64,000 nucleotides of DNA from Candidatus Woesebacteria bacterium (GTDB taxonomy: Bacteria; Patescibacteriota; Microgenomatia; UBA8517), in NCBI GenBank assembly GCA_016700095.1, contig CP065002.1:496463-560462 (forward strand), read 5' to 3'. Below are positions 30,358 to 47,577 of this stretch, in pieces; the first letter of the stretch is position 1; each line of letters starts with the position of its first letter. Below the pieces are notes generated by a model. That model was not told the DNA's origin, did no database searches, and saw nothing but the letters and a program-made list of their open reading frames with translations. Position numbers and translations under genes: made by a program.

Positions 30358-33300
30358 TTATTTTCTAGGAAGACGTTTTCTTACAATAAATACAATTCCA
30401 CCGATTACGACAATAAAAAGTCCGAAGGCTGTAATTGGTCCAATGATACTAAATATTCCGGAAGAATAATCGAGAGCACTTACATTATCGTAACCGACTG
30501 GAGGCATCATTTGTGTGTCAGTTGCACTTTTATTCATTCCAAAGAAGTTAAGGTTTAAATCGGAACTAATACCGTCAGCCGGATCCGACAGCGTTACGCG
30601 TTGGGGTTGGGTCGTAGTTTGTTCTCTATATCTATCTGCTCGCATAGACTCTCTTTCCAGCTGTGAAATTTGTTGATCATTAACTAGCGCAATCAATGAT
30701 GAATAAGGTGTCACGATATTAGCGTTTGTAGCAATTAAATCAAGTTCGTCGAGAAATGCCGTATCTTGTATCAACGTGCTTCTATCGCGTATTTTCTCAT
30801 CAATAATAGCCTTGGCAAAAACGTAGGAAAGAGGATCGGATGCTTGAGTTTCTATTAATATCGGTAAATCGACATATACCTTGCTAAATTCACCGTGGAT
30901 ATTGGGAGCGACAATCGAATCGAAGGAAGAGTTGTGTGCTAATGCATATACCAAAGCTTGCTCGAAGCTCGTGTAAGAATAGGTATTGGATTTTAAAAGA
31001 GTAGGCAGGAGATTGTCAGAAACTTGCAAAAAGCCGGTGTCATTAATTAGTGAGACGTTGTCATAAAGCGATTTGGTCATTTTTGAAATATTGTCAAAAA
31101 CAAAAATTAAATCATAAGAACGTTTGATGCTAGCGGACAAATCGACGATAGAAGTGCTGCCAAAATATGTTATATTGTCCAGGATTTGATCACTATTTAA
31201 TTTAGTTAACGTTTGTGGTTTACTGATTACGTCGTTGTATTTGAAAAACTCGACAGAATTTGCAGAAAGAAATCCTTCATTGTCTTTGAAAAATCGACTC
31301 AACTTTTCTTCGTACTTGTATTGTTTGTTTGCAATGGTGGTATTAAAAAAGATGGCAATTTTGAGGTCCTTTGCGTTGGCTATCAAGTTACATGGATTTT
31401 GAAAACCATAGTTCGTTATTTTTGTCAGATGATCAGTTTGCGAGTTTAAGGTGTAATTACATTTTTCCGGTGAAGGTATATATCCACCCTTGGTTACATT
31501 ATCTTGTGACAAATTACTGTATATTCCATTAACTTTTAGCGAGTAGATGACACCAGTGTCTTTAATATTAATGTTTTCTTTGTATGAGGGAAGAGCGAAT
31601 CCGTTTTTCTCGACTGCGGTTACGTATGTAAACGCGACTCGTTGATTTTTTCCCTTAAGAGTTACCGTATCGTTTTTACCGGGGATGGGGAACACTCTTA
31701 ATCTGTAGGAATTTGGTCCGATTTGTTCGAGAAGTGCGGGATCGCGCTGTGTTTGTATTTGAGCATTAAAAGTACGAGTTGCAGCTCCTTGTGGAGCAAC
31801 CAGTCCTTTGAATTCCAAATCCGGTCCAAGTTGTAAGTTGGTTATCACAGATCCAGGGGGAAGTGAAAAATGATATGAGACCTCTTCGTTGCGTGAGGTT
31901 GTATTTTTGAATTCGTCCTCTATCGTGATAGTTGCCAATAGACCATCGTATGACGTTACGGTGTCAATATTTCTTTTTATCAAATCAACATTTTGAATGG
32001 CAAGTGTTGTTTCTTTGTCATCACCAAATACATAATTATAGGTATTAATTATTGTATATTTATTTTCAAAACTACCCTGGTAAACAAAAGGGTAGGCGAT
32101 AATTTCAAATACATCTTCTATTTTTGTGGCCGTGTCGCTGTCGAGGTCAAAAGAATCGATATATAACCGACTTATAGTGTCATCGTTTTTCGCCATGATA
32201 TACCTATCTTTGAAATTAGCCATATCATTGATGGCGTTTTCTAAGAGATTTTTCTTACTCGACAGCTCCAGAGTTAAGCTTTCTCGTTCCTCGTAAGTCG
32301 AGAGCTTGTGGATGTCAAGCAATTTATTGAAGTAGTTATCAGGACTGGGTTGGTATGACAAGATTGCTACAAGGATAATCCAGATCGCAGTGATTCCAAT
32401 TGATCTTGTGACAAGATAATTTTCTCCCTTATCGCGGGATGATTTTATCCATTGTAAATAAAATATTTTGAAAGACTTAATTGTTACCAAAAAAGGAATC
32501 GACAAGACCAGCAATACTGGAATAAAAATGATAATAAATTCCAAAACACGAACGAACATATCTGCAAAATCGAAAGATCGAGAAAACAAAATATCATAAA
32601 AAGCCTCCGCAAATAGAGGAGCGATAAAGAAACTAAGAATTAAACACAAATACGAAAGAGTAATAAAAAGACTTAACTTGATAAAAAGTGCCATAAATAA
32701 AGGGGTTTTGAATTTGTATTCATATCCGGTTATGTTTGCAAAAAACATCGGAACAGACGACATTATAATCACGAAAAGGAAAATCATAATTTTACTCGGT
32801 TCGGGAAAAAGAGTGAGAAATGTTGTACCCGCCAAAACTACGGGTATTTCCAATAGGAAAAATATACCTCCGTATTTATATTTAATATTTTGTTTTCTCA
32901 GGTGCAAAGAAAGATAAACAACAAAATAGGGGACAAGAAGTAATCCCAAAACAAGGATAACTTTAAAAGGGTTTGTTTCAGTGATTAAATTAATAAATTC
33001 GGATCGCTTGGAAAAAAGTGCTTGAACTAGTATCGCAGAAGTTAGGGCAATATAGAGAAGGTTATATCCCCAGAAAATAAAACCGGCCATAAAAGATGTG
33101 AATTTGTCATTATCGTTTTTGGTTTGGGGTGACTTATCCGTTTGTGGTGCATTTTTTGATATATTGTCGATAATTATTTCCCGTGCGGTTTTCTCGGCTA
33201 AATGTACAAATTCCTTGGGAGCGACTTCTTTCCCGTCGGCAACTACTTTTATGTCACCCGTAATAGCATTGATGACTACTTCGGCGTTTCTTTGGCTATC

Positions 33301-33420
33301 GGGATAAAGAGTGTAATAATTATCAAGCACTTTTGACCGGATTTTCTCCACAATGTCAGATTGGTTGGCGCCGCTTTCAATAGCAAGATCAAGAAGTTTA
33401 GAGTATTCACTCATTAACAT
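30358..33420 (-). CDS. large hypothetical polytopic surface protein (1020 aa)
   Basis: Cytoplasmic N-terminal about 100 aa, about 8 TM helices, an extracytoplasmic domain of about 600 aa, and a C-terminal TM helix followed by the basic tail VRKRLPRK. Confidence 0.6.
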   Translation of the reverse strand: MLMSEYSKLLDLAIESGANQSDIVEKIRSKVLDNYYTLYPDSQRNAEVVINAITGDIKVVADGKEVAPKEFVHLAEKTAREIIIDNISKNAPQTDKSPQTKNDNDKFTSFMAGFIFWGYNLLYIALTSAILVQALFSKRSEFINLITETNPFKVILVLGLLLVPYFVVYLSLHLRKQNIKYKYGGIFFLLEIPVVLAGTTFLTLFPEPSKIMIFLFVIIMSSVPMFFANITGYEYKFKTPLFMALFIKLSLFITLSYLCLILSFFIAPLFAEAFYDILFSRSFDFADMFVRVLEFIIIFIPVLLVLSIPFLVTIKSFKIFYLQWIKSSRDKGENYLVTRSIGITAIWIILVAILSYQPSPDNYFNKLLDIHKLSTYEERESLTLELSSKKNLLENAINDMANFKDRYIMAKNDDTISRLYIDSFDLDSDTATKIEDVFEIIAYPFVYQGSFENKYTIINTYNYVFGDDKETTLAIQNVDLIKRNIDTVTSYDGLLATITIEDEFKNTTSRNEEVSYHFSLPPGSVITNLQLGPDLEFKGLVAPQGAATRTFNAQIQTQRDPALLEQIGPNSYRLRVFPIPGKNDTVTLKGKNQRVAFTYVTAVEKNGFALPSYKENINIKDTGVIYSLKVNGIYSNLSQDNVTKGGYIPSPEKCNYTLNSQTDHLTKITNYGFQNPCNLIANAKDLKIAIFFNTTIANKQYKYEEKLSRFFKDNEGFLSANSVEFFKYNDVISKPQTLTKLNSDQILDNITYFGSTSIVDLSASIKRSYDLIFVFDNISKMTKSLYDNVSLINDTGFLQVSDNLLPTLLKSNTYSYTSFEQALVYALAHNSSFDSIVAPNIHGEFSKVYVDLPILIETQASDPLSYVFAKAIIDEKIRDRSTLIQDTAFLDELDLIATNANIVTPYSSLIALVNDQQISQLERESMRADRYREQTTTQPQRVTLSDPADGISSDLNLNFFGMNKSATDTQMMPPVGYDNVSALDYSSGIFSIIGPITAFGLFIVVIGGIVFIVRKRLPRK

Positions 33421-38008: not shown

Positions 38009-38560
38009 TTATATCGACAAGACAGGGAGTGCGGTTACAACCAAGCGTTTGGAATCCAGAAAACCACTACAGGTATAAAGTGTAATACGCTCATCATTTG
38101 TCGGATCCAGAATTCCCATTTGATCAGGGCTGACAATTTGTACATATTCTATTTTGTAGCTTCTGGTTGTACCGTCCGATAGTACAATCTTAATTAAGTC
38201 ACCTGGTTGTGCCTTTGCCAAATTACCCAGAATATTCTTGTAATTATGTCCATAAAAAACACTATTCCCGTTTTGACCTGGTGTTGCAGATGATACAAGA
38301 AATGACACACCTTCGGTTGTGGTTTCCCATCTACCTTCATTAACTCTGGCGGGAAAAACTGAAAGATTAATGTCCAAAGTGCTAAGAGAAAGTGATACCG
38401 GTTGTAAATCTAATTTATCTTCTTTATTGCTATATGTGTTTATGGCAACGTTACTGAAGGCTAGTCGGTTTGGGTTATATCTTTGCCATAAGTAAAATGC
38501 TGAAACAATCATCATACATATTCCGGTGACGATAAATACGTTGGCAAGCAGATTTTTCAT
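38009..38560 (-). CDS. sortase-family transpeptidase (membrane anchored)
   Basis: N-terminal TM anchor; catalytic triad context His (SVFYGHNYKN), Cys in DERITLYTCSGF (TLxTC), Arg (KRLVV). Confidence 0.8.
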   Translation of the reverse strand: MKNLLANVFIVTGICMMIVSAFYLWQRYNPNRLAFSNVAINTYSNKEDKLDLQPVSLSLSTLDINLSVFPARVNEGRWETTTEGVSFLVSSATPGQNGNSVFYGHNYKNILGNLAKAQPGDLIKIVLSDGTTRSYKIEYVQIVSPDQMGILDPTNDERITLYTCSGFLDSKRLVVTALPVLSI

Positions 38561-38572
38561 ATGTAGAACACT

Positions 38573-39253
38573 TTATCTTGCTACTGTTTTTTTAAGTATT
38601 ACGCCAGCTAAAAGCGAGGAAAAACCAAGAAGGGTGTAGATGGTGATTGTCGCAAGGTTGCCGGTTGTTGCCAGTCCCAAAACCGATCCGCCGTTACTTG
38701 TCGAAGCGGCTGCTGATAGTACCGACCCCGTTGAAGTATTTGAATTTGACGAAGTAGAAGAAGAATTGGTTGATCCTCCACAACTGTAATTAGCGTTTAT
38801 AGCCATGTAACTACTGGCATCCAAACCCCACACCGAACCACTCGGTACAAATACCCAACCCAATTTTTTAAGGGTTTCGATTTCATCTTCATCTAAGGAA
38901 CTTATTTTCCACCAGTTTGTTTGAACACCTGAACCGTTTTCGCTGCAAAAACATTGCATTGCGCTACCATTTTCAAGACTATATACATAATCACTACCTG
39001 CGCGCAAAACACCTTCACCGACAATTGCGTGTTGTCCATCGGTGTAGGATACTTTTAAAACTCCTTGTGGATTCGAGCAAGCAGGGAAGTTGGGGATGGC
39101 TGATTGCGCGCTTACTGAACTTGTAAGCGACAAGGAAAGAAGTAAGCTAACTAAACTTAACGAAATACTTTTGGCAATGTTCATTTTTGAATTGGCAGAT
39201 GAAAAAGATAGATTTAATACAAGTATAATAACATTATAGGTCATAAAAAGCAA
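38573..39253 (-). CDS. sortase-substrate surface protein with LAxTG sorting signal and Ser/Thr-rich stalk
   Basis: Signal peptide (probable start MNIAKSISLSLVSLLLSLSLTSSVSA at 39184), globular domain with Cys pairs, then SSTSSNSNTSTGSVLSAAASTSNGGS linker. C-terminal LATTG + hydrophobic span + KKTVAR is a canonical cell-wall sorting signal. Confidence 0.75.
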   Translation of the reverse strand: MLFMTYNVIILVLNLSFSSANSKMNIAKSISLSLVSLLLSLSLTSSVSAQSAIPNFPACSNPQGVLKVSYTDGQHAIVGEGVLRAGSDYVYSLENGSAMQCFCSENGSGVQTNWWKISSLDEDEIETLKKLGWVFVPSGSVWGLDASSYMAINANYSCGGSTNSSSTSSNSNTSTGSVLSAAASTSNGGSVLGLATTGNLATITIYTLLGFSSLLAGVILKKTVAR

Positions 39254-39459: not shown

Positions 39460-40740
39460 TTATCTAGTGAAAAACGCAACAAACACTTTTCGTAATTTGA
39501 AAAATATATTCTCATGCTGTTTAATCAATATGATACGAAGTGGTGTGTCTCCCGAAGCATTAAGGTAGAGTGTATTATAATTATCTGCTTCAACTTGTAT
39601 CTTTGTATCTTCGGCTAATAGTGGAATGTAGAATTTTCCGTCAGCGTTGGTTGTTGCCGACTTATTGTCGGAATAAATCCTAGCATTATTGACAGCTTGA
39701 CCGATTTCGTTTACCACAACCCCTATTGCAATTTTGGGTTGATAGTATTTTGTAAGTACGTCAACTGCCGGTCGTTTGTCGAAATTATCTTCCCACAATT
39801 TGGTGCTGCCACCAAAACTTGTCCAATAATTAATACCTACCAGGTCATCGATCTTTGTAAGTTTATTAAGTGCGTCGTCGATCCAAACAGCTTGCTCTTT
39901 TGTGTTTAGATTTCCATGCAAGTCGGAAATGGGAGCACCGAATTCACCAAGGATAACTTGTCCACCACTTTTTAGAGCTAAGCTTTCAATGTCTTTGACC
40001 AATCTATCATCATCGCCAACATAGTGATCGATAACGACAATTCCACCCAAGGCTTGTGTTGTAGTTTTATCCATAATTAGATTGGCAACATCGCCGTTCA
40101 TGGGGACGAAATTTGAACGAACGTTTTTGCCGATTTTTCGGAAGGCATCGTTTGTTACCCTGTATTCGTCAATTATAAATTTTCGGTACTCATTGACATC
40201 TCTTGTTATTCTGGGATCTCCCGGTCCGCCATTTTCGCATTCGGGACATGAACTAAAAATATCACCTTCCATAAACAAATTTCCATTCGTAAGTATGAAA
40301 TCTTTGATTAAGGCTGTGTGTTCTTCTCTGCTAATTGTGTCATAATCAAACCAACCTTCCCATCCCGGCACGTTACCACGAAACCAAACTTTCAAGTTGT
40401 ATTTTCTGGCAGCATTTACCCAACGAGTAAGGAACGGCACAAATTCTTGTGCATACGGAGTACCGATGGACACATGGGTTGCGCCCGTTTCGGCTATTAG
40501 ACGGACATGTGAATCGATTACGTTGTCAAAAGTTGGATCAAGTGCTTTCTCTCGCGCTACGTCGCGTGAATATTTCACCGTATCGATCGATTGGATATCC
40601 CACCAGGTTGCCCTTATATCTTGTGCCTGATTGACGAAGTTTGGTTTAACTACGCTTGCCAATATACCAAATATTATGACAAGCAAAATGAGAATTATGA
40701 GAAGTTTTTTGTTTTGCACTTTTATATTATTTACACTCAT
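39460..40740 (-). CDS. membrane-anchored putative glycoside hydrolase (TIM-barrel, GH5-like) with C-terminal carboxypeptidase-regulatory-like beta-sandwich
   Basis: N-terminal TM anchor; ILGEFGAP resembles the GH5-type nucleophile strand; C-terminal GVVVNEIGQAVNNARIYSD...DGKFYIP resembles a CarboxypepD_reg-like domain. Family assignment is tentative. Confidence 0.5.
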   Translation of the reverse strand: MSVNNIKVQNKKLLIILILLVIIFGILASVVKPNFVNQAQDIRATWWDIQSIDTVKYSRDVAREKALDPTFDNVIDSHVRLIAETGATHVSIGTPYAQEFVPFLTRWVNAARKYNLKVWFRGNVPGWEGWFDYDTISREEHTALIKDFILTNGNLFMEGDIFSSCPECENGGPGDPRITRDVNEYRKFIIDEYRVTNDAFRKIGKNVRSNFVPMNGDVANLIMDKTTTQALGGIVVIDHYVGDDDRLVKDIESLALKSGGQVILGEFGAPISDLHGNLNTKEQAVWIDDALNKLTKIDDLVGINYWTSFGGSTKLWEDNFDKRPAVDVLTKYYQPKIAIGVVVNEIGQAVNNARIYSDNKSATTNADGKFYIPLLAEDTKIQVEADNYNTLYLNASGDTPLRIILIKQHENIFFKLRKVFVAFFTR

Positions 40741-40747
40741 AATCCGG

Positions 40748-42370
40748 TTATTTTTGTTTACTGAAAATTGGATAAGTAGTTAATTTAGGTACAAATTCGA
40801 ACTTTAGTTCATAAATATCCGCAAAGGGATAACTTTCGACTAACACATAATTTTCAAATCCTTGGGTTTTACTGACAGATCTCCATACCGAATCGTTATT
40901 GTCGTGCGACCGCATAATTATCCACCTTGCCCAATGATCGGGAGTTGTGGTTGCCGATTCCCAATAAGCCCCGGTTCCTTCGTGGATAAACTTTTTCATA
41001 GGCAAATTGGATGAGAATATTATTGCGTCATGGCTGGCTGCCGAAATTAAAACAAAGCCTTCTTTGGATCCGGCATTTTCTTTCAACCACCCCGACACCT
41101 CGGTTACGTTTTTCTGACTTGAACCGACCCTGGCGTCGTCAATTGTTACTGCATCTTGATTTACAAAGGCAAAAAATGTTACAAAAGCAAATAATCCGAT
41201 TATCATCCAACGCAAATCTTTGAACTTGTCCACCAAAAATCCGGAAAAAATAGCAATCGAGGGTAAAAGCATTATTCCGTAACGGACATTGAACCAAGTA
41301 TTTCCCGAAATTCCTTGGATAAAAAGTACGGAGTGGCCAAGGTATAGAGCTAAAATATTAAATACTAACGGTGCCAAGAGTGCAGCAATTGCTATTTTTA
41401 CCTCGTACTTGATTTTGGATGTCCAAATCGCAATTAATCCTACAACTCCCATTAAAACCTGATATGCGTAGGAATTGTAAACCATAGCATAAAGATAAAG
41501 TTTGATAGACAACAAAATATTGTGTTTGGTTGCCAATTCTCCCGCCGCGTTGAGTTGGTCTTGCTGAGCTTTCGCAGAAAATTCCCCAAGTGCAAAGTAG
41601 AGTGGATCTCCAAAAATCATCAAATTCCACAATAACCATAATAGAATTCCTAAACTTCCAAGTGTTAGGAAAAGAAGTATTTTCCCTTCGGTTTCTTTGT
41701 AACCATGTTTTCGAATGACTGTAAAAAATATTATTAATGTTGCTGTAAAAAGAAGAAACCATCCATCGTAGCGTGTGATTGTCGAGAGCATAATAAAAAA
41801 TGCAGCCTTAATTAGATTCAAAATTTCATCTTTTTTCGCCCAAAGCATGAGGTAATATGCACCTAAAGTCATTGTTGCCAGAAGCAATAGTTCCGTCATG
41901 GCTGTTGATTGTAGATAGAGAATGTTTACATTAGCTACAAAAACCACAACTCCAAAGAACCTTCCAATGAGACCAACCTTTAATTGTTCAAGGAATTTGT
42001 AAATAATTACCCCCATAGCAATAAATGAGATCATGGAGACAAGTGCGCCCGAAAGACCCGAATGCCAAAAAAAGTCATTCCAAATTGTCGGGATCATGAG
42101 GACATGGGGGAGAGGAAGCCATACTGAACCCAACTGAGCTATTCCCGGTTTCAAACCTTCAACTACACGTCGACCGATATCCAAGTGACTTCTGGCATCA
42201 TTGTAGGCAAGACCGATGCCGTTTTGGTAGTAGTGAACGAAAAAGTAGGTAGAGATTGCGGTCAGTAAAAATATAATTATTACCACAGCATGTTTCTCCA
42301 ACCACACGTGGATGTTGGCTAAGGTTCTTTTCTGCAGACTAAAACTAATTACAAATTCTGGAATTTTCAT
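40748..42370 (-). CDS. GT-C fold membrane glycosyltransferase (PMT/ArnT, GT39/GT83-like)
   Basis: About 11 N-terminal TM helices with an Asp-containing first extracytoplasmic loop (YNDARSHLDIGRR) and a soluble C-terminal domain of about 130 aa; this architecture marks polyprenyl-phosphate-sugar-dependent GT-C enzymes. Confidence 0.65.
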   Translation of the reverse strand: MKIPEFVISFSLQKRTLANIHVWLEKHAVVIIIFLLTAISTYFFVHYYQNGIGLAYNDARSHLDIGRRVVEGLKPGIAQLGSVWLPLPHVLMIPTIWNDFFWHSGLSGALVSMISFIAMGVIIYKFLEQLKVGLIGRFFGVVVFVANVNILYLQSTAMTELLLLATMTLGAYYLMLWAKKDEILNLIKAAFFIMLSTITRYDGWFLLFTATLIIFFTVIRKHGYKETEGKILLFLTLGSLGILLWLLWNLMIFGDPLYFALGEFSAKAQQDQLNAAGELATKHNILLSIKLYLYAMVYNSYAYQVLMGVVGLIAIWTSKIKYEVKIAIAALLAPLVFNILALYLGHSVLFIQGISGNTWFNVRYGIMLLPSIAIFSGFLVDKFKDLRWMIIGLFAFVTFFAFVNQDAVTIDDARVGSSQKNVTEVSGWLKENAGSKEGFVLISAASHDAIIFSSNLPMKKFIHEGTGAYWESATTTPDHWARWIIMRSHDNNDSVWRSVSKTQGFENYVLVESYPFADIYELKFEFVPKLTTYPIFSKQK

Positions 42371-43896
42371 AAATTTTCCTTTTTATTTTCAAAATATGTA
42401 GCGGTGTAAAAAAGACTTATCAGAAGTAATATGGTGAAAGTATACAACGCAGTGTAATTAATGCTATTCATATATTTGTTAGCATATGCGTTATAAAAAA
42501 TTGAACTATTTAGTTTGTCCTCAGTCATTAATTGCCAGTTATATAAATACGTATGGGGAATCGGGTTGGGTAAATTAACAGCTTCAACTTTTGGGGGTAC
42601 CTGGGAAGTTGTCGTTGCACCCATTACATTAATACCAACGCTATATGTTGTAAGAATTATAAACAAAGGAATAAACCATGCTTTTTTTGTGTACTTTTGT
42701 ATGGCCAAACCGATGGTAATAGATAACACAGCAGTCGCTGGGATTAGATATCTTGGTCCAAATGCCCAACTGCCCGTAGGATCACCAAACATTGTGTAAA
42801 TCAACAAATTTGTCATAGTCACAGCAATTAATAATTTTGATTTGCCGCGCAACTGTTTATTTTTGTAAGCGAAAGCTAGCCCGGCTATTCCAAGTATGAT
42901 GATAGGACTATAAACAAATATGCTTCTTTGGTCACTTATTATAAATATGTAAAAACCTTCAAGTTGCCCTCTTGTTTTGAAGGGTAGACTTAAACCTTTC
43001 TTTTCAACTTCTGAAGAAACCTCAACTTGTAACTTGTTTGTAAAATCATTACTTCGTCCGAGAAATTGGGCCAGTGTAGTGTAAGATTGTGCAGTCTCAT
43101 AATTGTACCACCCAAATATTCCAACTAACGGAATTATTCCAATTAATAAGCCAATAAAATTTAATTTTAAACTAAGCTTAAGTTTACTTCCGGTATTATG
43201 GACATTAAACTGTTTGGCGAGAATATAAAAAACCAGAGGGAACATGATTATTCCATTAGGTATATCCATTAGAAGTCCTATTCCATATGATATACCAAAA
43301 ATAATGTTGTTTAATAAAGTTCTGGGTTTCATGGTATATAAAATCCCAACCAATATTAGAGAAGTACTTGCGTGATGTTGCGTAAATGTGAATGCATAAG
43401 ATAATGCGTTAGTCGCAAACAAAAAAAGTAATCCACACAATATTGACATGTACAAACCTGAACCCAATTTTCTGGATATATTGGCTATTAAGAATAAATT
43501 TACCACTGCAAATAGAATTGTTGAAAAATATGTTGAAATCTGAGGAATTCCAAATTGTTTGCCCAATAAATAAAATGGTACTCCCACGAAAGAAACGCCA
43601 GGTGTGAAGATTGAGAAGTACTTGCCTTTATAATTGGTAACGTCAGGTGAGGCAAATCCTGCTCTTTCTGTATTTAGCATAAAGGTACTGTCTTCCACAA
43701 TCGCTTCAGTTAATGCAAATCTAGAAGTGCTACCAGATGATTCAAAGGGAGTACCCACAGCCGTACTTTTACTTTTTGTATCTTGATATAATAATAAATT
43801 ATCTTCTCTTTTACCTTTAACGTTTATTGTTAACAAAAATACTATTACTATAATAAATAGTAAATATGATGAATATTTGATGATATTTTTTAGCAT
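42367..43896 (-). CDS. GT-C fold membrane glycosyltransferase (PMT/ArnT-like), paralog of the previous gene
   Basis: Same architecture (first-loop motif EDSTF..., 10 or more TM helices, C-terminal soluble tail); 4-nt overlap with the downstream gene. Confidence 0.65.
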   Translation of the reverse strand: MLKNIIKYSSYLLFIIVIVFLLTINVKGKREDNLLLYQDTKSKSTAVGTPFESSGSTSRFALTEAIVEDSTFMLNTERAGFASPDVTNYKGKYFSIFTPGVSFVGVPFYLLGKQFGIPQISTYFSTILFAVVNLFLIANISRKLGSGLYMSILCGLLFLFATNALSYAFTFTQHHASTSLILVGILYTMKPRTLLNNIIFGISYGIGLLMDIPNGIIMFPLVFYILAKQFNVHNTGSKLKLSLKLNFIGLLIGIIPLVGIFGWYNYETAQSYTTLAQFLGRSNDFTNKLQVEVSSEVEKKGLSLPFKTRGQLEGFYIFIISDQRSIFVYSPIIILGIAGLAFAYKNKQLRGKSKLLIAVTMTNLLIYTMFGDPTGSWAFGPRYLIPATAVLSITIGLAIQKYTKKAWFIPLFIILTTYSVGINVMGATTTSQVPPKVEAVNLPNPIPHTYLYNWQLMTEDKLNSSIFYNAYANKYMNSINYTALYTFTILLLISLFYTATYFENKKENL

Positions 43897-43902
43897 AATT
43901 AT

Positions 43903-44817
43903 CTAGTTTTTTGTTGATTTTAAAGATTCCCACATTGGATTAAAGTTAAGTGCATATATCTGGCTTTTATATTTCACAATAAAACCTAATATCAAAAGGT
44001 AGGTTCCAAGGAATGGGTGTTTAACAAATTCTATAAATTTATAGACCCAAATTGTTTTAATTTGTTTGTATTCTCTGGAAACAATGTCACCAAACGAATC
44101 TTTTAATATGTGCTGATTGGAATTATTTCTGATTTGCCATTTTAAATAGTCTTTGTTGGTTGATGGATTCATGTAATAAACTTTAGCATACCTAACATGC
44201 TTATAAGTATATTTAGAAGTGATTGTGGCGAAGTATAAATAAGAATCCACGTTACCCATTTTAGTGCTAACGGAAAGTGGAATATTTTTAATAAAATCAT
44301 TTGAAAACGCCATTACTTTTCCATCGCAGGTAAATTTGTTGTTCTTGTTTTTAAGTGAGTTCCTCATTTTATAAAAAGCACAAAAACTTGAATTAGCTGC
44401 TTTCTGCACAAAATTTGTTGGTGGTAGAGGAATTGGATTACCTGTTACAAAACCGACTTTCTGGTTTTTAAAAGGTGACAATAGGGAGTTTAAGAATTTA
44501 TTATCTCTAATGAAAATATCGTCATTTAGTACAACCAATATATTAGAAGTATTTATTTTGAATAAATGTTTGATTACACCAGCGAAACCCAACCGATTTG
44601 TACCGACCTGATATTTAACAATACTATGAGATTTGGCATAAGTAGCTGCAATAGAATTTGATTTATCAGTAGAACAATCCGAGTATACAAGTATTTCTTT
44701 GAAAGAAAACTCGGTGACTTTTTGAGACAATAGTGCCTCGAGAAGTAATGATAAGTTTCTCTCTGAGTTATATACAGCGATTGCCACAGTCACACTCAAT
44801 TTATTTTTGTTTTTCAT
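43903..44817 (-). CDS. family 2 glycosyltransferase (DPM1/GtrB-like), paralog 1 of 4
   Basis: N-terminal MKNKNKLSVTVAIAVYNSERNLSLLLEALLSQ ... DDIF (DxD-like); C-terminal hydrophobic helix and the conserved tail NPMWESLKSTK shared by all four paralogs. Confidence 0.8.
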   Translation of the reverse strand: MKNKNKLSVTVAIAVYNSERNLSLLLEALLSQKVTEFSFKEILVYSDCSTDKSNSIAATYAKSHSIVKYQVGTNRLGFAGVIKHLFKINTSNILVVLNDDIFIRDNKFLNSLLSPFKNQKVGFVTGNPIPLPPTNFVQKAANSSFCAFYKMRNSLKNKNNKFTCDGKVMAFSNDFIKNIPLSVSTKMGNVDSYLYFATITSKYTYKHVRYAKVYYMNPSTNKDYLKWQIRNNSNQHILKDSFGDIVSREYKQIKTIWVYKFIEFVKHPFLGTYLLILGFIVKYKSQIYALNFNPMWESLKSTKN

Positions 44818-45728
44818 TTATTTAAAATCAAATTTTTCGAACTGGTTGATATTTTCCATTTAGATTTACTTTCATCGCCAACAAGGGATAACACTCTTGA
44901 ATATAACAACAAAAATAGGTACAACGTCGTTAATCTGAAATCTTGTTTCGTGTTGCGTAGTAACACTCTAAATTGTAGTTTTGGAGGAATTTTGTAACTT
45001 GATACAACCAGTTCTTTACCGAAGAAAAATTCTAAATGTTTTTTTGTACTATGAAACCTCACGCTTTGCCTTAAATGATCATTTAAATTATTTGGTAATT
45101 TGTAAATTACTTTTGCCGTTGGTTCGTATTGGAATTGGTATCCTTTAGAAATACAACTTAAATATGAAAATGCATCTTCGCCGGCCACGCTCTGCCATTT
45201 CATGCTTTTGGCAAATTTCTTTGAAAAAGCTCTTATCCGTCCATGGCAGTTATATATATTATTACCGGAATTCAAAGCCATATAAATTTCATTTTTCATA
45301 TGAGAACTGTAATTTAGTACATTTTCAAAAAGAGTCGTTTGTTTGATAGCTTCCACTTTTCCGCCAACCAAACCCACCTTTGGGTTTTTAATGAAAGGCT
45401 TAAGAATGTTTTCAAGAACACCACTGGTTTTAGGTAAGATATCTGCGTCGAATATTACTAAATAATCAGAAACCAACTTTTTGACTATTATATTTTGACT
45501 TAACGATTTACCTAAACGTTTTCTGTTCCTTAGTAGTTCAATTCTTTTGTCTTTTATTGCTTTAACTATTTCTTCTGTCTTGTCTGTGCTTTCGTCGGAA
45601 ACCACAATTATTTTCTCCAAAATGAAGTTTTCCTGCTTTTGTTTTAACAATGCTGAAAGTAGCCTTCCGATATTTGCCTCTTCATTGTATGCAGGTATGC
45701 CTATTGTTACTGTTGGTTTATTTTTCAT
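44814..45728 (-). CDS. family 2 glycosyltransferase, paralog 2 of 4
   Basis: MKNKPTVTIGIPAYNEEANIGRLLSALLKQ ... VSDESTDKT ... FDADI; start set at the MKNKP Met (45728); an upstream in-frame Met exists at 45761. Confidence 0.8.
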   Translation of the reverse strand: MKNKPTVTIGIPAYNEEANIGRLLSALLKQKQENFILEKIIVVSDESTDKTEEIVKAIKDKRIELLRNRKRLGKSLSQNIIVKKLVSDYLVIFDADILPKTSGVLENILKPFIKNPKVGLVGGKVEAIKQTTLFENVLNYSSHMKNEIYMALNSGNNIYNCHGRIRAFSKKFAKSMKWQSVAGEDAFSYLSCISKGYQFQYEPTAKVIYKLPNNLNDHLRQSVRFHSTKKHLEFFFGKELVVSSYKIPPKLQFRVLLRNTKQDFRLTTLYLFLLLYSRVLSLVGDESKSKWKISTSSKNLILNK

Positions 45729-45745
45729 TTTTGTTTTACTTGGTC

Positions 45746-46678
45746 TCAGATGGCGAACCATTTTTTATCAATCGGTAGCTTTGTGCTTTGTACCATTTCC
45801 CATTTTTTGTTAGTTGCACCTTTGTCTTTTCTCGGATTAATTCTGACATAAATATTGAGAAGAATTGCCAAGGTCGTCAGGATTGGACTATGCAACATTA
45901 TTTTAGATATTGCTCGGATTTTAAACAGTAGTGGAACTTGATATACATCAATTATGTCGTGTCCGAAATGTTCGACAATTGTTTTTTTATCTTGATAAAT
46001 TGATCTACTAGCTTGAAGTCTGAAGTCATAAATACTTTGGGTTGATCTATATAATATTTCAGCATCTTTACAGTATGCAAATTTTCCGTAATGCTGTGCC
46101 ATTAAATAGAGGTAATTCTGATCGGTTGTTAGGGTTGAGGGATAATGAATATGTTTAGCAAGTATTTTTGACAAAGCAGTTGCCGAACCTTGTAAATTAT
46201 GAATATGATCTCCGTCGTTAACACCTATTCTTACTTCTTCCCAAATACGGTTTGAAGTATATAAAATTTTTCCTGTAAAAGTGTCGGGCATGATAGGTAT
46301 TTGATGTGCAGCAACTAAAACAACACTTTTATTGTTCCTGAATTTACGCACCATGTTTTCAATCACTTTGTTATTTGACAAAACTATATCGGCGTCGAAT
46401 GTGAATAAGTAATCACTTGTATTCAAAGAATAAATTTGATTTAAGCGCTTCATTTTCCCCAAACGGTTTGGGCTGTTAATGACTTTAATCAATTTTGTCT
46501 TTGTGCGAAAATTAGCGGCAATTTTCACCGTTTGGTCACTACACCCATCACAAACAACATAAATGGTTTTTATAAGAAAATTTCCTTTTTGCCCCAAGAC
46601 GGATTCGAGTAAATTGGAAATGTTTTTCTCCTCGTTGTGTGCAGGTATTCCGATCGTAATTGTTGGTTTATTTTTCAT
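45746..46678 (-). CDS. family 2 glycosyltransferase, paralog 3 of 4
   Basis: MKNKPTITIGIPAHNEEKNISNLLESVLGQ ... CDGCSDQT ... FDADI; nearly identical N-terminus to paralog 2; start set at the MKNKP Met (46678). Confidence 0.8.
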   Translation of the reverse strand: MKNKPTITIGIPAHNEEKNISNLLESVLGQKGNFLIKTIYVVCDGCSDQTVKIAANFRTKTKLIKVINSPNRLGKMKRLNQIYSLNTSDYLFTFDADIVLSNNKVIENMVRKFRNNKSVVLVAAHQIPIMPDTFTGKILYTSNRIWEEVRIGVNDGDHIHNLQGSATALSKILAKHIHYPSTLTTDQNYLYLMAQHYGKFAYCKDAEILYRSTQSIYDFRLQASRSIYQDKKTIVEHFGHDIIDVYQVPLLFKIRAISKIMLHSPILTTLAILLNIYVRINPRKDKGATNKKWEMVQSTKLPIDKKWFAI

Positions 46679-46680
46679 TA

Positions 46681-47577
46681 TTATATTTTCTTGGTTGATG
46701 AATCTACTTTCCACAGAGGATTAAGTATTTTTTTACGGTTTAATTTACTAACCCTGGTGTATACAAACAAAAATAAGTAAAGACCTGAATATATTGGATG
46801 ACTAATAAACATGGATGCAAAGGCGGCAAGATAAATCAATAGTGGGACTTGATATTCCGTAGTTAGATCTCCAAAGTATTTTTCCAATTCATCTTTGGAA
46901 TACTGGAATCTGCTGGACTGACGCATGTGTTCATTGACGACCATTGGACTTTTGTTGTAAACGATTGAATTTTTGGCAAACTTGAATTTTCCTCCCACAC
47001 GTTTGTTTTCAAAGTATAAATATGCATCGAGATTAGTAATGCCGTCGACGATTTTCATTTTCTTTAAAGTGCTTACCTTAAAAGCCATACATCTTCCACT
47101 GGCAACAAGATAATTGTCGGAATCGTTCCACATCTTACCGGCTTTGTAAACACCATTTACTCCAATTTCGATAATTTTTTCTAAGGTTGTTTGTGCGGGG
47201 AAGGGGACAATTCTGCTTGATACCTCGGTCACACTTTTATCTTCCATAACTTTACTAATTTCAGCCAGTGCATGTTTATCAAACAACAAGTCATCTTGGG
47301 TAAACACCAAAATGCCTGACTTGGTCATGGTAACTATTTGTTTAAGTTTTGCCGACAAGCTCCTTGATTTTTTATATTCATGTACTTCTATACCTAAGGC
47401 TTTTAATTTCTTTAGATGGCTATCTTTAATTGGGAGCGTATCTGCAATTACAATAAATCTGAATTTGTCCACATTAATTGATTTCACTATGCTTTCAGCG
47501 GTTTTGACGAGATTTACCGCTCCATGTCTGGTTGATATTGCGACTGTTATGCTTTGATTTTTCATACGATTACTCAT
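46681..47577 (-). CDS. family 2 glycosyltransferase-like, paralog 4 of 4 (divergent)
   Basis: ITVAISTRHGAVNLVKTAESIVKS...; same C-terminal hydrophobic helix + W...STK tail; more divergent catalytic motifs. Confidence 0.65.
   Translation of the reverse strand: MSNRMKNQSITVAISTRHGAVNLVKTAESIVKSINVDKFRFIVIADTLPIKDSHLKKLKALGIEVHEYKKSRSLSAKLKQIVTMTKSGILVFTQDDLLFDKHALAEISKVMEDKSVTEVSSRIVPFPAQTTLEKIIEIGVNGVYKAGKMWNDSDNYLVASGRCMAFKVSTLKKMKIVDGITNLDAYLYFENKRVGGKFKFAKNSIVYNKSPMVVNEHMRQSSRFQYSKDELEKYFGDLTTEYQVPLLIYLAAFASMFISHPIYSGLYLFLFVYTRVSKLNRKKILNPLWKVDSSTKKI

What the first reader, a model, noticed from the sequence alone, without database searches (positions are those of the whole stretch)
40748..43896. 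Two adjacent PMT/ArnT-like GT-C glycosyltransferases
Both proteins have 10 or more N-terminal TM helices with an acidic first extracytoplasmic loop and a soluble C-terminal tail, the hallmark of polyprenyl-P-sugar-dependent GT-C enzymes. Two divergent copies next to four lipid-carrier-charging GT2s suggest two different acceptor or sugar specificities.
Basis: partly seen in the sequence, partly recalled or inferred. Interest (0 to 1): 0.55.

Follow-up and report, generated by a model that had tools for sequence, protein, structure and literature searches.

The report
Paired membrane glycosyltransferases in a surface-glycan cassette
Two neighbouring genes of an uncultivated Woesebacteria (CPR) bacterium encode very divergent lipid-linked-sugar (GT-C type) membrane glycosyltransferases, and they form the fixed core of an uncharacterised cell-surface sugar-polymer gene cassette found throughout this bacterial group.

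Summary
Both ORFs are real, at exactly the stated coordinates, on the minus strand. The stop of the upstream gene (B) overlaps the start of the downstream gene (A) as ATGA. Neither hits any Pfam model or solved structure by sequence. However, AlphaFold models of both match only GT-C enzymes (ArnT, ALG12, STT3, Emb, Pmt4), and many homologues of each reach PMT_2. The GT-C call is therefore supported at superfamily level. Membership of GT39 or GT83 is not supported. Only A (540 aa) has a soluble C-terminal domain; B (509 aa) ends in a membrane helix. The four adjacent GT2s look like generic Leloir enzymes. The clear DPMS/ArnC/GtrB-like lipid-charging domain lies instead at the N-terminus of the 1597-aa protein upstream. 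In 80 species-level genomes the order B, A, GH-like protein, small LAxTG protein, sortase is almost invariant, while the sugar genes upstream vary. Natural fusions link A to a processive synthase-like GT2, to the GH-like protein and to B. The most likely role is extracytoplasmic glycosylation of a secreted polysaccharide. This is a new variant of a known kind and of moderate interest.

The parts
42367..43896 (-). B: 509-aa polytopic GT-C-fold protein. TM1 is followed by a 76-aa outer loop, and the protein ends in a TM helix. The conserved residues are E52, R59, D85, D211, R309, R324 and R382.
   Evidence: The ORF is. The AF2 model has pLDDT 85.7 and pTM 0.89. The Foldseek top hit is ArnT 5ezm at E 9e-6. 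PMT_2 is hit by 12 of 27 homologues.
40748..42370 (-). A: 540-aa polytopic GT-C-fold protein with a 137-aa soluble C-terminal domain. It is 59-76% identical across Microgenomates. The family-wide invariant residues are D58, W84, E160, R200, W245 and R363.
   Evidence: The ORF is. The AF2 model has pLDDT 70.9 and pTM 0.75. Foldseek finds ALG12, STT3 and ArnT. PMT_2 is hit by 38 of 68 diverse homologues. The invariant residues come, and the family size.
39460..40740 (-). Membrane-anchored GH-like protein of 426 aa, with a CarboxypepD_reg-like beta-sandwich near its C-terminus. Its fused relatives match the clan GH-A families Glyco_hydro_cc and GH5. It is a conserved downstream partner of A.
   Evidence: Pfam hits are. 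It is 40% identical (E 9e-90) to the C-terminal half of the A fusion P0252. It lies within 5.5 kb downstream of A in 72 of 76 loci.
38573..39253 (-). Small secreted Cys-containing protein with an S/T-rich linker and a C-terminal LGLATTG signal, TM helix and basic tail. It is a probable sortase substrate.
   Evidence: The sequence is. Homologues share the (V/I)LGLA[AT]TG motif. It lies downstream of A in 52 of 65 loci.
38009..38560 (-). Sortase.
   Evidence: Pfam Sortase at 1.9e-21. It lies downstream of A in 48 of 65 loci.
43903..47577 (-). Four paralogous GT2 genes of about 300 aa each (43903-44817, 44814-45761, 45746-46714, 46681-47577). They are part of the variable, sugar-specific section of the cassette. 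Each has at most one C-terminal hydrophobic helix and a shared W-x4-S(T/S)K end.
   Evidence: Pfam and NCBIfam hits are. The PDB hits of one of them (GT2b) are generic.
47570..51231 (-). CDP-6-deoxyhexose pathway: a DRL/SAF oxidoreductase, an RmlC-like epimerase, CDP-glucose 4,6-dehydratase and a nucleotidyltransferase. This belongs to the variable section of the cassette.
   Evidence: Genes of this kind were found in only 23 of 55 related loci.
55318..55992 (-). DPMS/ArnC/GtrB-like GT2 domain (residues 36-260 of the 1597-aa protein), followed by two TM helices. It is the best candidate for the polyprenyl-phosphate-sugar synthase that supplies the GT-C enzymes.
   Evidence: PDB hits are DPMS 5mlz at 8e-19, ArnC 9hwj at 5e-13 and GtrB 5eke at 2e-11. 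The top NCBIfam hit is ArnC at 4.8e-17.
54103..54951 (-). Processive-synthase-like GT2 domain (residues 383-665), with DAED, TED and QRSRW motifs and TM helices after it.
   Evidence: NCBIfam CelA at 7e-22 and PgaC at 4e-19. The motifs are visible. This domain is fused to A-family GT-C in at least 7 representatives.
52546..53760 (-). Polytopic domain of about 10 TM helices (residues 780-1184) with no recognisable family. It is a candidate flippase, by inference only.
   Evidence: Hydropathy is. There is no Pfam, NCBIfam or PDB match.
51388..52407 (-). GT4 domain (residues 1231-1570) of the 1597-aa protein.
   Evidence: Pfam Glycos_transf_1 at 2e-42 and Glyco_transf_4.

Best explanation
A and B are two very divergent GT-C-fold glycosyltransferases that use polyprenyl-phosphate-sugar donors, and they work on the outer face of the membrane as an obligate couple. 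They are either sequential enzymes or a heterocomplex. Together they form the invariant core of a surface-glycan assembly cassette that is conserved across Microgenomates and neighbouring CPR lineages.

The proposed route has four steps.
1. The DPMS/ArnC/GtrB-like domain at the N-terminus of the 1597-aa protein loads a sugar onto undecaprenyl phosphate in the cytoplasm.
2. The lipid-linked sugar is flipped across the membrane. The flippase is not identified here. The 10-TM domain of the same protein is a candidate, and relatives have a GtrA-like gene next door.
3. B and A transfer sugar from this donor onto a glycan outside the cell. Catalysis would use a conserved acidic residue in the loop after TM1 (A D58; B E52 or D85) and a conserved Arg just before a late TM helix to hold the phosphate (A R363; B R382).
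4. The acceptor is most likely the polysaccharide extruded by the processive synthase-like GT2 domain. The GH-like protein downstream would trim or transglycosylate it. The variable GT2, GT4 and sugar-nucleotide genes (here a CDP-6-deoxyhexose pathway) would set the lineage-specific composition.

What is shown: the fold, the conserved residues, the synteny and the fusions. What is inferred: the donor, the acceptor, the order of action and the physical pairing.
For: - **Fold:** both AF2 models hit only GT-C enzymes at the top, with probability 1.0 and TM 0.48-0.54.
- **Transitive sequence link:** PMT_2 is hit by 38 of 68 A homologues and 12 of 27 B homologues.
- **Signature residues:** D58, E160, R200 and R363 are invariant over 68 A homologues of 29-62% identity. 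R382 and D211 are invariant, and E52 and D85 at least 93% conserved, over 77 B sequences. These positions parallel the EL1 Asp, the EL2 Asp/EL3 Lys pair and the EL5 Arg described for the GT-C/PMT clan in PMC7801869. hhalign aligns A FNVRY with B FGPRY.
- **Coupling of the pair:** the stop and start overlap as ATGA. B lies directly upstream of A in 70 of 71 species-level loci. A natural B-A fusion, P0242, is seen on two contigs within the same cassette.
- **Donor synthase:** residues 36-260 of the large protein match DPMS at 8e-19, ArnC at 5e-13 and GtrB at 2e-11. Fusions P0284 and P0356 join this domain and the synthase-like GT2 to an A-family GT-C, and P0284 is followed directly by a GtrA_DPMS_TM gene.
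- **Polysaccharide link:** the synthase-like GT2 is fused to A in at least 7 representatives. A is fused to the window-type GH in 4 representatives and to a GH5 domain in 3. The GH-like gene lies within 5.5 kb downstream in 72 of 76 loci.
Against: - There is no direct match of either window protein to any curated GT-C family. NCBIfam gives only far-sub-threshold hits to the LA_3751/LA_3752 family.
- The A model is poor exactly in the conserved loops (pLDDT below 50 at residues 53-83, 348-362 and 411-475). The residue equivalences therefore rest on position in the sequence, not on superposition.
- No flippase was identified in the window.
- The acceptor is inferred from gene fusions in relatives, not from this locus.
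- The cassette also carries a sortase and its substrate, which fits a protein acceptor equally well.
- There is no biochemical evidence of any kind.
Confidence: 0.6

Rival explanations
1. A and/or B are PMT-like protein O-glycosyltransferases. They would glycosylate the co-encoded sortase substrate, or other secreted proteins and pilins, on Ser/Thr as these emerge from the membrane.
For: Homologues match PMT_2, and 5 match PMT. Pmt4 and Pmt1/2 are among the fold hits. A small secreted LAxTG protein and a sortase follow the pair in 52 and 48 of 65 loci. In this window and in L001 that protein has an S/T/P-rich linker.
Against: The S/T-rich linker is absent from the homologues in L002 and L003, so it is not a conserved feature. 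There is no MIR domain and no DE motif (A has D58-A59). The recurrent fusions of A are to a processive polysaccharide synthase-like GT2 and to glycoside-hydrolase domains, not to protein-handling modules.
Confidence: 0.2
2. One of the two is an en-bloc transferase: an oligosaccharyltransferase, ligase or polymerase. It would move a Und-PP-linked oligosaccharide, built by the variable GT2/GT4 enzymes and then flipped, onto a protein, onto the wall or onto a growing chain. It would not add single sugars from Und-P-sugar.
For: STT3 and AglB are among the best fold hits, especially for A. The cassette contains many Leloir GTs and a possible flippase-like 10-TM domain, but no recognisable Wzy or ligase. 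L002 alone has a distant Wzy_C gene.
Against: Foldseek scores do not separate OST from ArnT or ALG hits. A DPMS/GtrB-like domain, which makes Und-P-monosaccharide donors, is covalently fused to A-family proteins, and in one case a GtrA-like gene is adjacent. No initiating phosphoglycosyl transferase was identified among the cassette genes that were scanned.
Confidence: 0.15
3. B is a non-catalytic partner of A, acting as a scaffold or specificity subunit, rather than a second enzyme.
For: B is much more variable than A. There are two B subtypes, with bit scores of 210-271 and 341-577, against a uniform 716-880 for A. The equivalent of the EL1 catalytic Asp is not unambiguous in B.
Against: B keeps invariant charged residues across both subtypes (D211, R309, R324, R382, H174), and E52 and D85 are at least 93% conserved. 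Its model is a complete, confident GT-C fold. Some B homologues pass PMT_2.
Confidence: 0.1

Closest known systems
ArnT (GT83), lipid A aminoarabinose transferase (PDB 5ezm/5f15)
   Same: It is the best (B) or near-best (A) structural match. Like A, it has a polytopic membrane core with a long loop after TM1 and a C-terminal outer domain, and it uses an Und-P-sugar donor made by a GT2 (ArnC). The conserved acidic and basic residues fall at similar places in the sequence.
   Different: There is no detectable sequence similarity to E. coli ArnT and no hit to an ArnT model. There are no arn operon partners. The organism is a CPR bacterium, a group generally inferred to have a Gram-positive-type envelope without lipid A (background knowledge, not tested here). 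B lacks the C-terminal domain.
Pfam PMT_2 / PMT clan (GT39-type protein O-mannosyltransferases; Pmt1-Pmt2 heterodimer)
   Same: Homologues of both proteins reach PMT_2. Pmt structures are among the fold hits. Like Pmt1-Pmt2, this is a pair of divergent paralogues that may act together.
   Different: The window proteins themselves score nothing against PMT_2 or PMT. There are no MIR domains. A has D-A rather than D-E in loop 1. The genomic and fusion context points to a polysaccharide rather than a protein acceptor.
Three-component extracytoplasmic glycosylation systems (GtrA/GtrB/Gtr*; C. youngae ORF15/14/12, PMC11127046)
   Same: There is a GtrB/DPMS-like polyprenyl-phosphate glycosyltransferase together with GT-C enzyme(s) in one locus. 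A fused relative has the synthase, the GT-C and an adjacent GtrA-like gene.
   Different: The synthase is one domain of a 1597-aa four-domain protein. No small flippase gene is present in the window. There are two GT-Cs that are always paired. The system is core to the locus rather than an accessory seroconversion module.
EmbA-EmbB / Aft arabinosyltransferases of mycobacteria (GT53 and related)
   Same: These are adjacent paralogous GT-C enzymes that form a heterodimer and extend a cell-wall polysaccharide from a polyprenyl-P-sugar. They are among the fold hits.
   Different: Emb proteins are twice as long and carry carbohydrate-binding modules. There is no sequence similarity. The donor pathway is different (DPA from PRPP).
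Synthase-dependent exopolysaccharide systems (BcsA with the BcsZ glycosidase; PgaC with PgaB)
   Same: The cassette combines a processive QxxRW-type GT2 with membrane helices and a dedicated extracytoplasmic glycoside-hydrolase-like partner. Some related loci also carry CE4 or PIG-L deacetylases.
   Different: To my knowledge, none of those systems includes GT-C enzymes or a sortase and its substrate. Here the synthase-like domain is fused to a DPMS-like domain and a GT4.

Membership tests
GT-C fold superfamily | Polytopic core of 7-13 TM helices with an extracytoplasmic domain after TM1 (definition quoted in PMC11127046). | tested here: met
   AF2 secondary structure and hydropathy give TM1 then a 56-aa loop in A, and TM1 then a 76-aa loop in B. 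Each has about 12-14 helices. No dedicated topology predictor was available.
GT-C fold superfamily | Structural similarity to solved GT-C enzymes. | tested here: met
GT-C / PMT clan | [quoted passage not shown] | tested here: met
   In A, D58 lies 9 residues after TM1 and is invariant in 68 homologues of 29-62% identity. It is followed by Ala, so only the universally required first Asp is present. In B the result is inconclusive: E52 and D85 are both at least 93% conserved, and which one is equivalent is unknown.
GT-C / PMT clan | Arg in the outer loop just before a late TM helix (EL5/TM10) that binds the carrier phosphate (PMC7801869). | tested here: inconclusive
   An invariant Arg lies immediately before a hydrophobic helix in both proteins (A R363, helix 362-382; B R382, helix 382-402), and hhalign aligns the two with each other.
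Pfam PMT_2 (PF13231) | Score at or above the gathering threshold (26.1 bits). | tested here: not met
   The window proteins give 0 Pfam families even at E<=10. The link is only transitive: 38 of 68 A homologues and 12 of 27 B homologues hit PMT_2, with best E about 2e-8.
PMT (PF02366, GT39 protein O-mannosyltransferase) | Match to the PMT model, the DE motif in loop 1, and MIR domains in the large outer loop. | tested here: not met
   There is no PMT or MIR hit. Only 5 of 68 A homologues reach PMT. A has D58-A59.
ArnT (GT83) | Sequence homology to ArnT, and arn-type context (ArnC, ArnE/F, lipid A acceptor). | tested here: not met
   hhalign of the A and B profiles against E. coli ArnT gives probability at most 1.4%. 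There is no NCBIfam ArnT hit. An ArnC-like domain exists, but inside a multidomain GT. No ArnE/F-like gene was found among the neighbourhood ORFs scanned.
NCBIfam NF047440, LA_3751/LA_3752 putative glycosyltransferase | Score at or above the curated cut-off of 200 bits. | tested here: not met
   A scores 28.8 bits and B 60.5 bits. 23 of 68 A homologues hit weakly.
   No such Pfam or NCBIfam hit was found, and none appears among the listed fold hits.
Three-component (Gtr-type) extracytoplasmic glycosylation system | A polyprenyl-phosphate sugar synthase (GtrB/DPMS-like GT2) encoded with the GT-C. | tested here: met
   Residues 36-260 of the 1597-aa protein match DPMS at 8e-19, ArnC at 5e-13 and GtrB at 2e-11. 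The top NCBIfam hit is ArnC. The large GT is present within 10 kb upstream of A in 42 of 55 loci.
Three-component (Gtr-type) extracytoplasmic glycosylation system | A dedicated flippase (GtrA, MATE or SMR type). | tested here: not met
   phmmer found no GtrA-like ORF in the 64-kb window. The 10-TM domain of the large GT has no family match. A GtrA_DPMS_TM gene does follow the fused relative in L085, and a GT2-GtrA fusion lies 9 kb from A in L001.
Three-component (Gtr-type) extracytoplasmic glycosylation system | Transfer of a single sugar from Und-P-sugar to a pre-formed glycan outside the membrane. | not testable with these tools
   This requires biochemistry or genetics.

The most novel reading that the evidence does not exclude
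Family A, with its obligate partner B, founds a GT-C family that is not yet curated. Together with a four-domain DPMS-synthase-(flippase?)-GT4 protein, a GH-like enzyme, a small LAxTG protein and a sortase, it would form a previously undescribed machine, close to universal in Microgenomates, that builds the main cell-surface glycopolymer of these uncultivated bacteria and perhaps anchors it through the sortase. On this reading the constant genes are the machinery and the genes upstream of B are a serotype-like variable region.
Probability: 0.35. Interest if true: 0.65.

Novelty: new variant of a known kind. Interest (0 to 1): 0.45.

Why it matters
CPR/Patescibacteria are a large fraction of bacterial diversity. 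They live attached to other cells, and almost nothing is known about how their surfaces are built. Here a membrane protein is 59-76% identical across candidate phyla of the Microgenomates, which is unusual for these fast-evolving genomes. It sits in a gene order that hardly varies and has no curated family. That makes it a strong candidate for a core envelope function. It offers a concrete, testable entry point (a defined cassette, candidate catalytic residues and a predicted donor synthase) into CPR surface-glycan biology. It could also add a new GT-C family to the classification. If it proves to be only another side-chain glycosylation module, the result is ordinary.

Tried and rejected
- **Direct family assignment** failed. 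Pfam gave nothing at E<=10. PDB sequence and profile searches with A1, A2 and A3 found nothing relevant. NCBIfam gave only far-sub-threshold LA_3751/2 hits.
- **hhalign of the A3 and A2 profiles against E. coli ArnT** found nothing. A single-sequence template is weak, so this does not argue against the shared fold.
- **The central polytopic region of the 1597-aa protein as a third, A-like GT-C:** rejected (hhalign probability 0.2%). Its family remains unknown.
- **The four GT2s as GtrB-like lipid-carrier chargers:** not supported, but not excluded.
- **B subtype against the content of the variable region** (stand-alone GT4, CDP-sugar genes, DRL): no convincing association (best Fisher p 0.05, without phylogenetic correction).
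- **The search for related loci with the diverse alignment A3** failed because no stretch was conserved enough. The closer alignment A1 was used instead, so the synteny statistics cover close relatives only (at least 59% identity).
- **Promoter and terminator scans** were no better than shuffled sequence.
- **Literature searches** for this cassette, for GT-C in Patescibacteria and for LA_3751 found nothing specific.
- **Cluster look-ups** gave almost no taxonomic names for distant A relatives.


Full report
**What is at the coordinates**

The finding's limits coincide exactly with two minus-strand ORFs. I call them B (42367-43896, 509 aa) and A (40748-42370, 540 aa). B's TGA stop overlaps A's ATG as ATGA, with an AAGGA just upstream. 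The neighbouring genes are 6-7 bp away, so the two genes sit in a tight operon.

Exact copies of both proteins are on record as hypothetical proteins IPM62_02660 and IPM62_02655 of a Candidatus Woesebacteria genome. The window is therefore from a CPR/Microgenomates bacterium with about 37% G+C. Both proteins have large families. An exhaustive HMMER scan of 50%-identity representatives found 2,231 relatives of A at E<=1e-3, of which 671 are at E<=1e-30.

**Check of the observation**

AlphaFold models built from 27-sequence alignments show polytopic helical bundles.
- A has pLDDT 70.9 and pTM 0.75. TM1 (residues 14-49) is followed by a 56-residue loop, then about eleven more long helices up to residue 403, then a 137-residue alpha/beta C-terminal domain.
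- B has pLDDT 85.7 and pTM 0.89. TM1 (residues 2-23) is followed by a 76-residue loop with two short helices and a hairpin, then about twelve more helices. The last helix (478-501) is followed by only eight residues.

Kyte-Doolittle peaks agree with this picture.

So 'ten or more TM helices' and 'a long first outer loop with conserved acidic residues' hold for both proteins. The loops are not net acidic, and only A has a soluble C-terminal tail. The two proteins are barely related in sequence: BLASTP E 0.15 and profile-profile probability 24%, E 8.6e-4. The profile alignment does line up A FNVRY with B FGPRY.

**Family assignment**

Direct searches fail.
- Pfam gives no hit for either protein even at E<=10.
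- PDB sequence and profile searches give nothing relevant.
- NCBIfam gives only weak, far-sub-threshold hits to the uncharacterised LA_3751/LA_3752 'putative glycosyltransferase' family. A scores 28.8 bits and B 60.5 bits against a cut-off of 200.

Two independent lines nevertheless place both proteins in the GT-C superfamily.

The first line is fold. Foldseek against the PDB returns, for both models, an unbroken block of GT-C enzymes: ArnT 5ezm/5f15, ALG12, ALG9, ALG3, STT3, AglB, EmbA/B/C, AftA/B/D, Pmt1/2/4 and DPY19. For A the block also includes PIG-M and the structurally related GPI transamidase subunit PIG-U. These hits have probability about 1.0 and TM up to 0.54. Unrelated transporters then follow at TM about 0.1.

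The second line is transitive sequence homology. When 68 diverse A homologues (29-62% identity) are scanned one by one, 38 hit PMT_2 and 5 hit PMT. Twelve of 27 B homologues hit PMT_2, and a few B homologues are named 'glycosyltransferase family 39' by NCBI.

Profiles of A and B against E. coli ArnT find nothing. 'PMT/ArnT-like' is therefore correct only at the level of the GT-C/PMT clan. Membership of GT39 or GT83 is not supported.

**Conserved residues**

Across the 68 diverse A homologues only six positions are invariant: D58, W84, E160, R200, W245 and R363. Across 77 B sequences of both subtypes the invariant positions are Y167, H174, D211, P220, R309, R324, Y367, G375, R382, Y383 and P434. 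E52, R59, P84, D85 and D372 are at least 93% conserved.

Eisenhaber et al. (PMC7801869) list four shared functional sites for the GT-C/PMT clan:
- an Asp in the TM1-TM2 loop, which is universally required;
- a basic residue in the same loop;
- an acidic/basic pair in the next two outer loops (ArnT D158/K203);
- an Arg just before a late TM helix, which binds the carrier phosphate.

In A, the residues D58, R60/H62, E160/R200 and R363 (immediately before helix 362-382) fall at the corresponding places. In B, R382 precedes helix 382-402, but the loop-1 catalytic residue (E52 or D85) is ambiguous.

These equivalences are positional inferences. The A model is poor exactly in these loops, and I could not superpose coordinates.

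**Surroundings in the window**

The minus-strand block from 56097 to 38009 is one glycan locus. In order it encodes:
- a 1597-aa multidomain GT;
- a CDP-6-deoxyhexose pathway (nucleotidyltransferase, CDP-glucose 4,6-dehydratase at 2.5e-153, an RmlC-like epimerase and a DRL/SAF oxidoreductase);
- four paralogous GT2s of about 300 aa;
- B, then A;
- a membrane-anchored 426-aa GH-like protein with a CarboxypepD_reg-like domain;
- a 226-aa secreted protein ending in LGLATTG, a TM helix and a basic tail;
- a sortase.

The large protein has four parts.
- Residues 36-260 resemble polyprenyl-phosphate glycosyltransferases: DPMS 5mlz at 8e-19, ArnC at 5e-13, GtrB at 2e-11, with ArnC as the top NCBIfam hit. 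Two TM helices follow.
- Residues 383-665 resemble processive synthases (CelA at 7e-22, PgaC at 4e-19). They carry DAED, TED and QRSRW motifs and are followed by TM helices.
- Residues 780-1184 are a block of about 10 TM helices with no recognisable family.
- Residues 1231-1570 are a GT4.

By contrast, the four small GT2s are 22-30% identical to each other and have at most one hydrophobic C-terminal helix. One of them (GT2b) was searched against the PDB and matched solved structures only generically.

**Conservation elsewhere**

A scan of one genome per GTDB species found 261 genomes with a close A relative. The best 80 are 59-72% identical. They carry names from Woese-, Gottesman-, Levy-, Davies-, Shapiro-, Ames-, Chisholm- and Curtissbacteria, and also WWE3 and Dojkabacteria. 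Many record titles say 'uncultured Gammaproteobacteria', which is evidently a mislabel.

I searched stop-to-stop ORFs of these loci with the window's proteins.

| Feature relative to A | Loci with it / loci with enough DNA |
|---|---|
| B directly upstream | 70 / 71 |
| GH-like gene adjacent downstream | 61 / 76 |
| GH-like gene within 5.5 kb downstream | 72 / 76 |
| Small LAxTG protein downstream | 52 / 65 |
| Sortase downstream | 48 / 65 |
| Large GT within 10 kb upstream | 42 / 55 |
| CDP-sugar genes present | 23 / 55 |

In other loci, PIG-L and CE4 deacetylases, a GT4, a pyruvyl transferase or kinase-like genes take the place of the CDP-sugar genes. The locus therefore has constant machinery and a variable, composition-determining middle.

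A's bit scores are uniform (716-880). B's are bimodal (210-271 and 341-577), which indicates two B subtypes. I found no convincing link between B subtype and the variable genes.

**Gene fusions**

Among the top 150 representatives of the A family:
- at least seven proteins join the synthase-like GT2 to A, and two of them (P0284, P0356) also carry the DPMS-like domain;
- four join A to a homologue of the window's GH-like protein (P0252: 40% identity, E 9e-90);
- at least three join A to a GH5 'Cellulase' domain.

P0284 is followed directly by a GtrA_DPMS_TM gene. That gives a complete synthase/flippase/GT-C set of the kind defined for three-component glycosylation systems (definition in PMC11127046).

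One protein, P0242, is a B-A fusion. Its B part is 34% identical (E 4e-69) and its A part 56% identical. It is seen on two contigs and sits in the same cassette, with a small protein and a sortase downstream.

One B homologue, P0006, carries a C-terminal kinase-like domain that occurs as a separate gene in many of the loci.

**Most likely mechanism**

I commit to the following, with overall confidence about 0.6. The GT-C assignment alone is about 0.9.
1. The DPMS/ArnC/GtrB-like domain charges undecaprenyl phosphate with a sugar.
2. The lipid-linked sugar is flipped across the membrane. The flippase is unidentified here.
3. B and A act as an obligate couple on the outer face and transfer that sugar to a glycan.
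4. The glycan is most probably the polymer made by the synthase-like domain. The GH-like protein acts on the same polymer.

Rivals are listed here with my confidence in each.
- Protein O-glycosylation of the sortase substrate or other surface proteins (0.2). This is weakened because the S/T-rich linker is missing from the homologues in L002 and L003.
- En-bloc transfer of a Und-PP-linked oligosaccharide by one of the pair (0.15).
- A non-catalytic B (0.1). This is weakened by B's invariant charged residues.

**Comparison with known systems and novelty**

The closest analogues in mode of action are the Gtr-type three-component systems, ArnC/ArnT, and the paired GT-Cs EmbA-EmbB and Pmt1-Pmt2. 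The combination of a synthase with a glycosidase recalls Bcs and Pga systems.

I found no paper describing this cassette. Méheust et al. (PMC6744442) note only that sortase is near-ubiquitous in Microgenomates and that most Microgenomates-enriched families are hypothetical membrane proteins.

I rate this a new variant of a known kind. The enzyme class is familiar. The family is uncurated, however, and the conserved pairing and cassette are undescribed. Interest is 0.45.

Noticed in passing
window 51304-56097 (-): This 1597-aa single polypeptide combines a DPMS/ArnC/GtrB-like GT2, a processive synthase-like GT2 (with a QRSRW motif), a domain of about 10 TM helices with no recognisable family, and a GT4. 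It is conserved upstream of the pair in 42 of 55 related loci. The 10-TM domain could be a flippase, but nothing matched it.
   Followed up: partly
window 38573-39253 (-); L001:12965-13606, L002:13088-13624, L003:12970-13425: This family of small secreted proteins has no Pfam match. Members share a conserved Cys-containing domain and a C-terminal (V/I)LGLA[AT]TG signal, TM helix and basic tail, and are always next to a sortase. The LAxTG motif may be the Microgenomates sorting signal. The S/T/P-rich linker is present only in some members.
   Followed up: partly
L004-L083 (B genes upstream of A): B falls into two discrete subtypes by score (210-271 against 341-577 bits, about 31% against 43% identity to the window's B), while A is uniform. 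The low-score subtype tends to be preceded by an unrecognised gene of about 750 bp (a PIG-L deacetylase in L001 and L003). No significant link to the variable genes was found.
   Followed up: partly
window 43903-47577 (-): The four tandem GT2 paralogues share a C-terminal hydrophobic helix and a conserved W-x4-S(T/S)K end. The fourth (46681-47577) is the most degenerate, with Pfam GT2 at only 0.0027.
   Followed up: no
window 47570-48865 (-): This 431-aa DRL_cat/SAF-domain oxidoreductase sits in the CDP-sugar pathway. Homologues recur in many related loci, sometimes directly downstream of A (for example L011, L028, L036). Its role in making a CDP-6-deoxyhexose is unclear.
   Followed up: no
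P0006 residues 506-857; stand-alone homologues e.g. L006:2877-3920, L010:183-1202: A kinase-like (APH/choline-kinase type) domain is fused to the C-terminus of one B homologue and is encoded separately in the variable region of many loci. This suggests a phosphorylated sugar or a phospho-substituent in some versions of the glycan, and it implies that B's C-terminus is cytoplasmic.
   Followed up: no
L005, L009, L010 and many other loci: Many TPA_asm records that carry this typically Microgenomates cassette are titled 'uncultured Gammaproteobacteria', 'Pseudomonadales' or 'Bathyarchaeia archaeon'. These look like taxonomic mislabels in the public records.
   Followed up: no
window 30358-33420 (-): This 1020-aa protein has a VIT (vault inter-alpha-trypsin) domain. 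It lies a few kb downstream of the cassette and next to an MFS transporter. It is possibly another surface protein.
   Followed up: no
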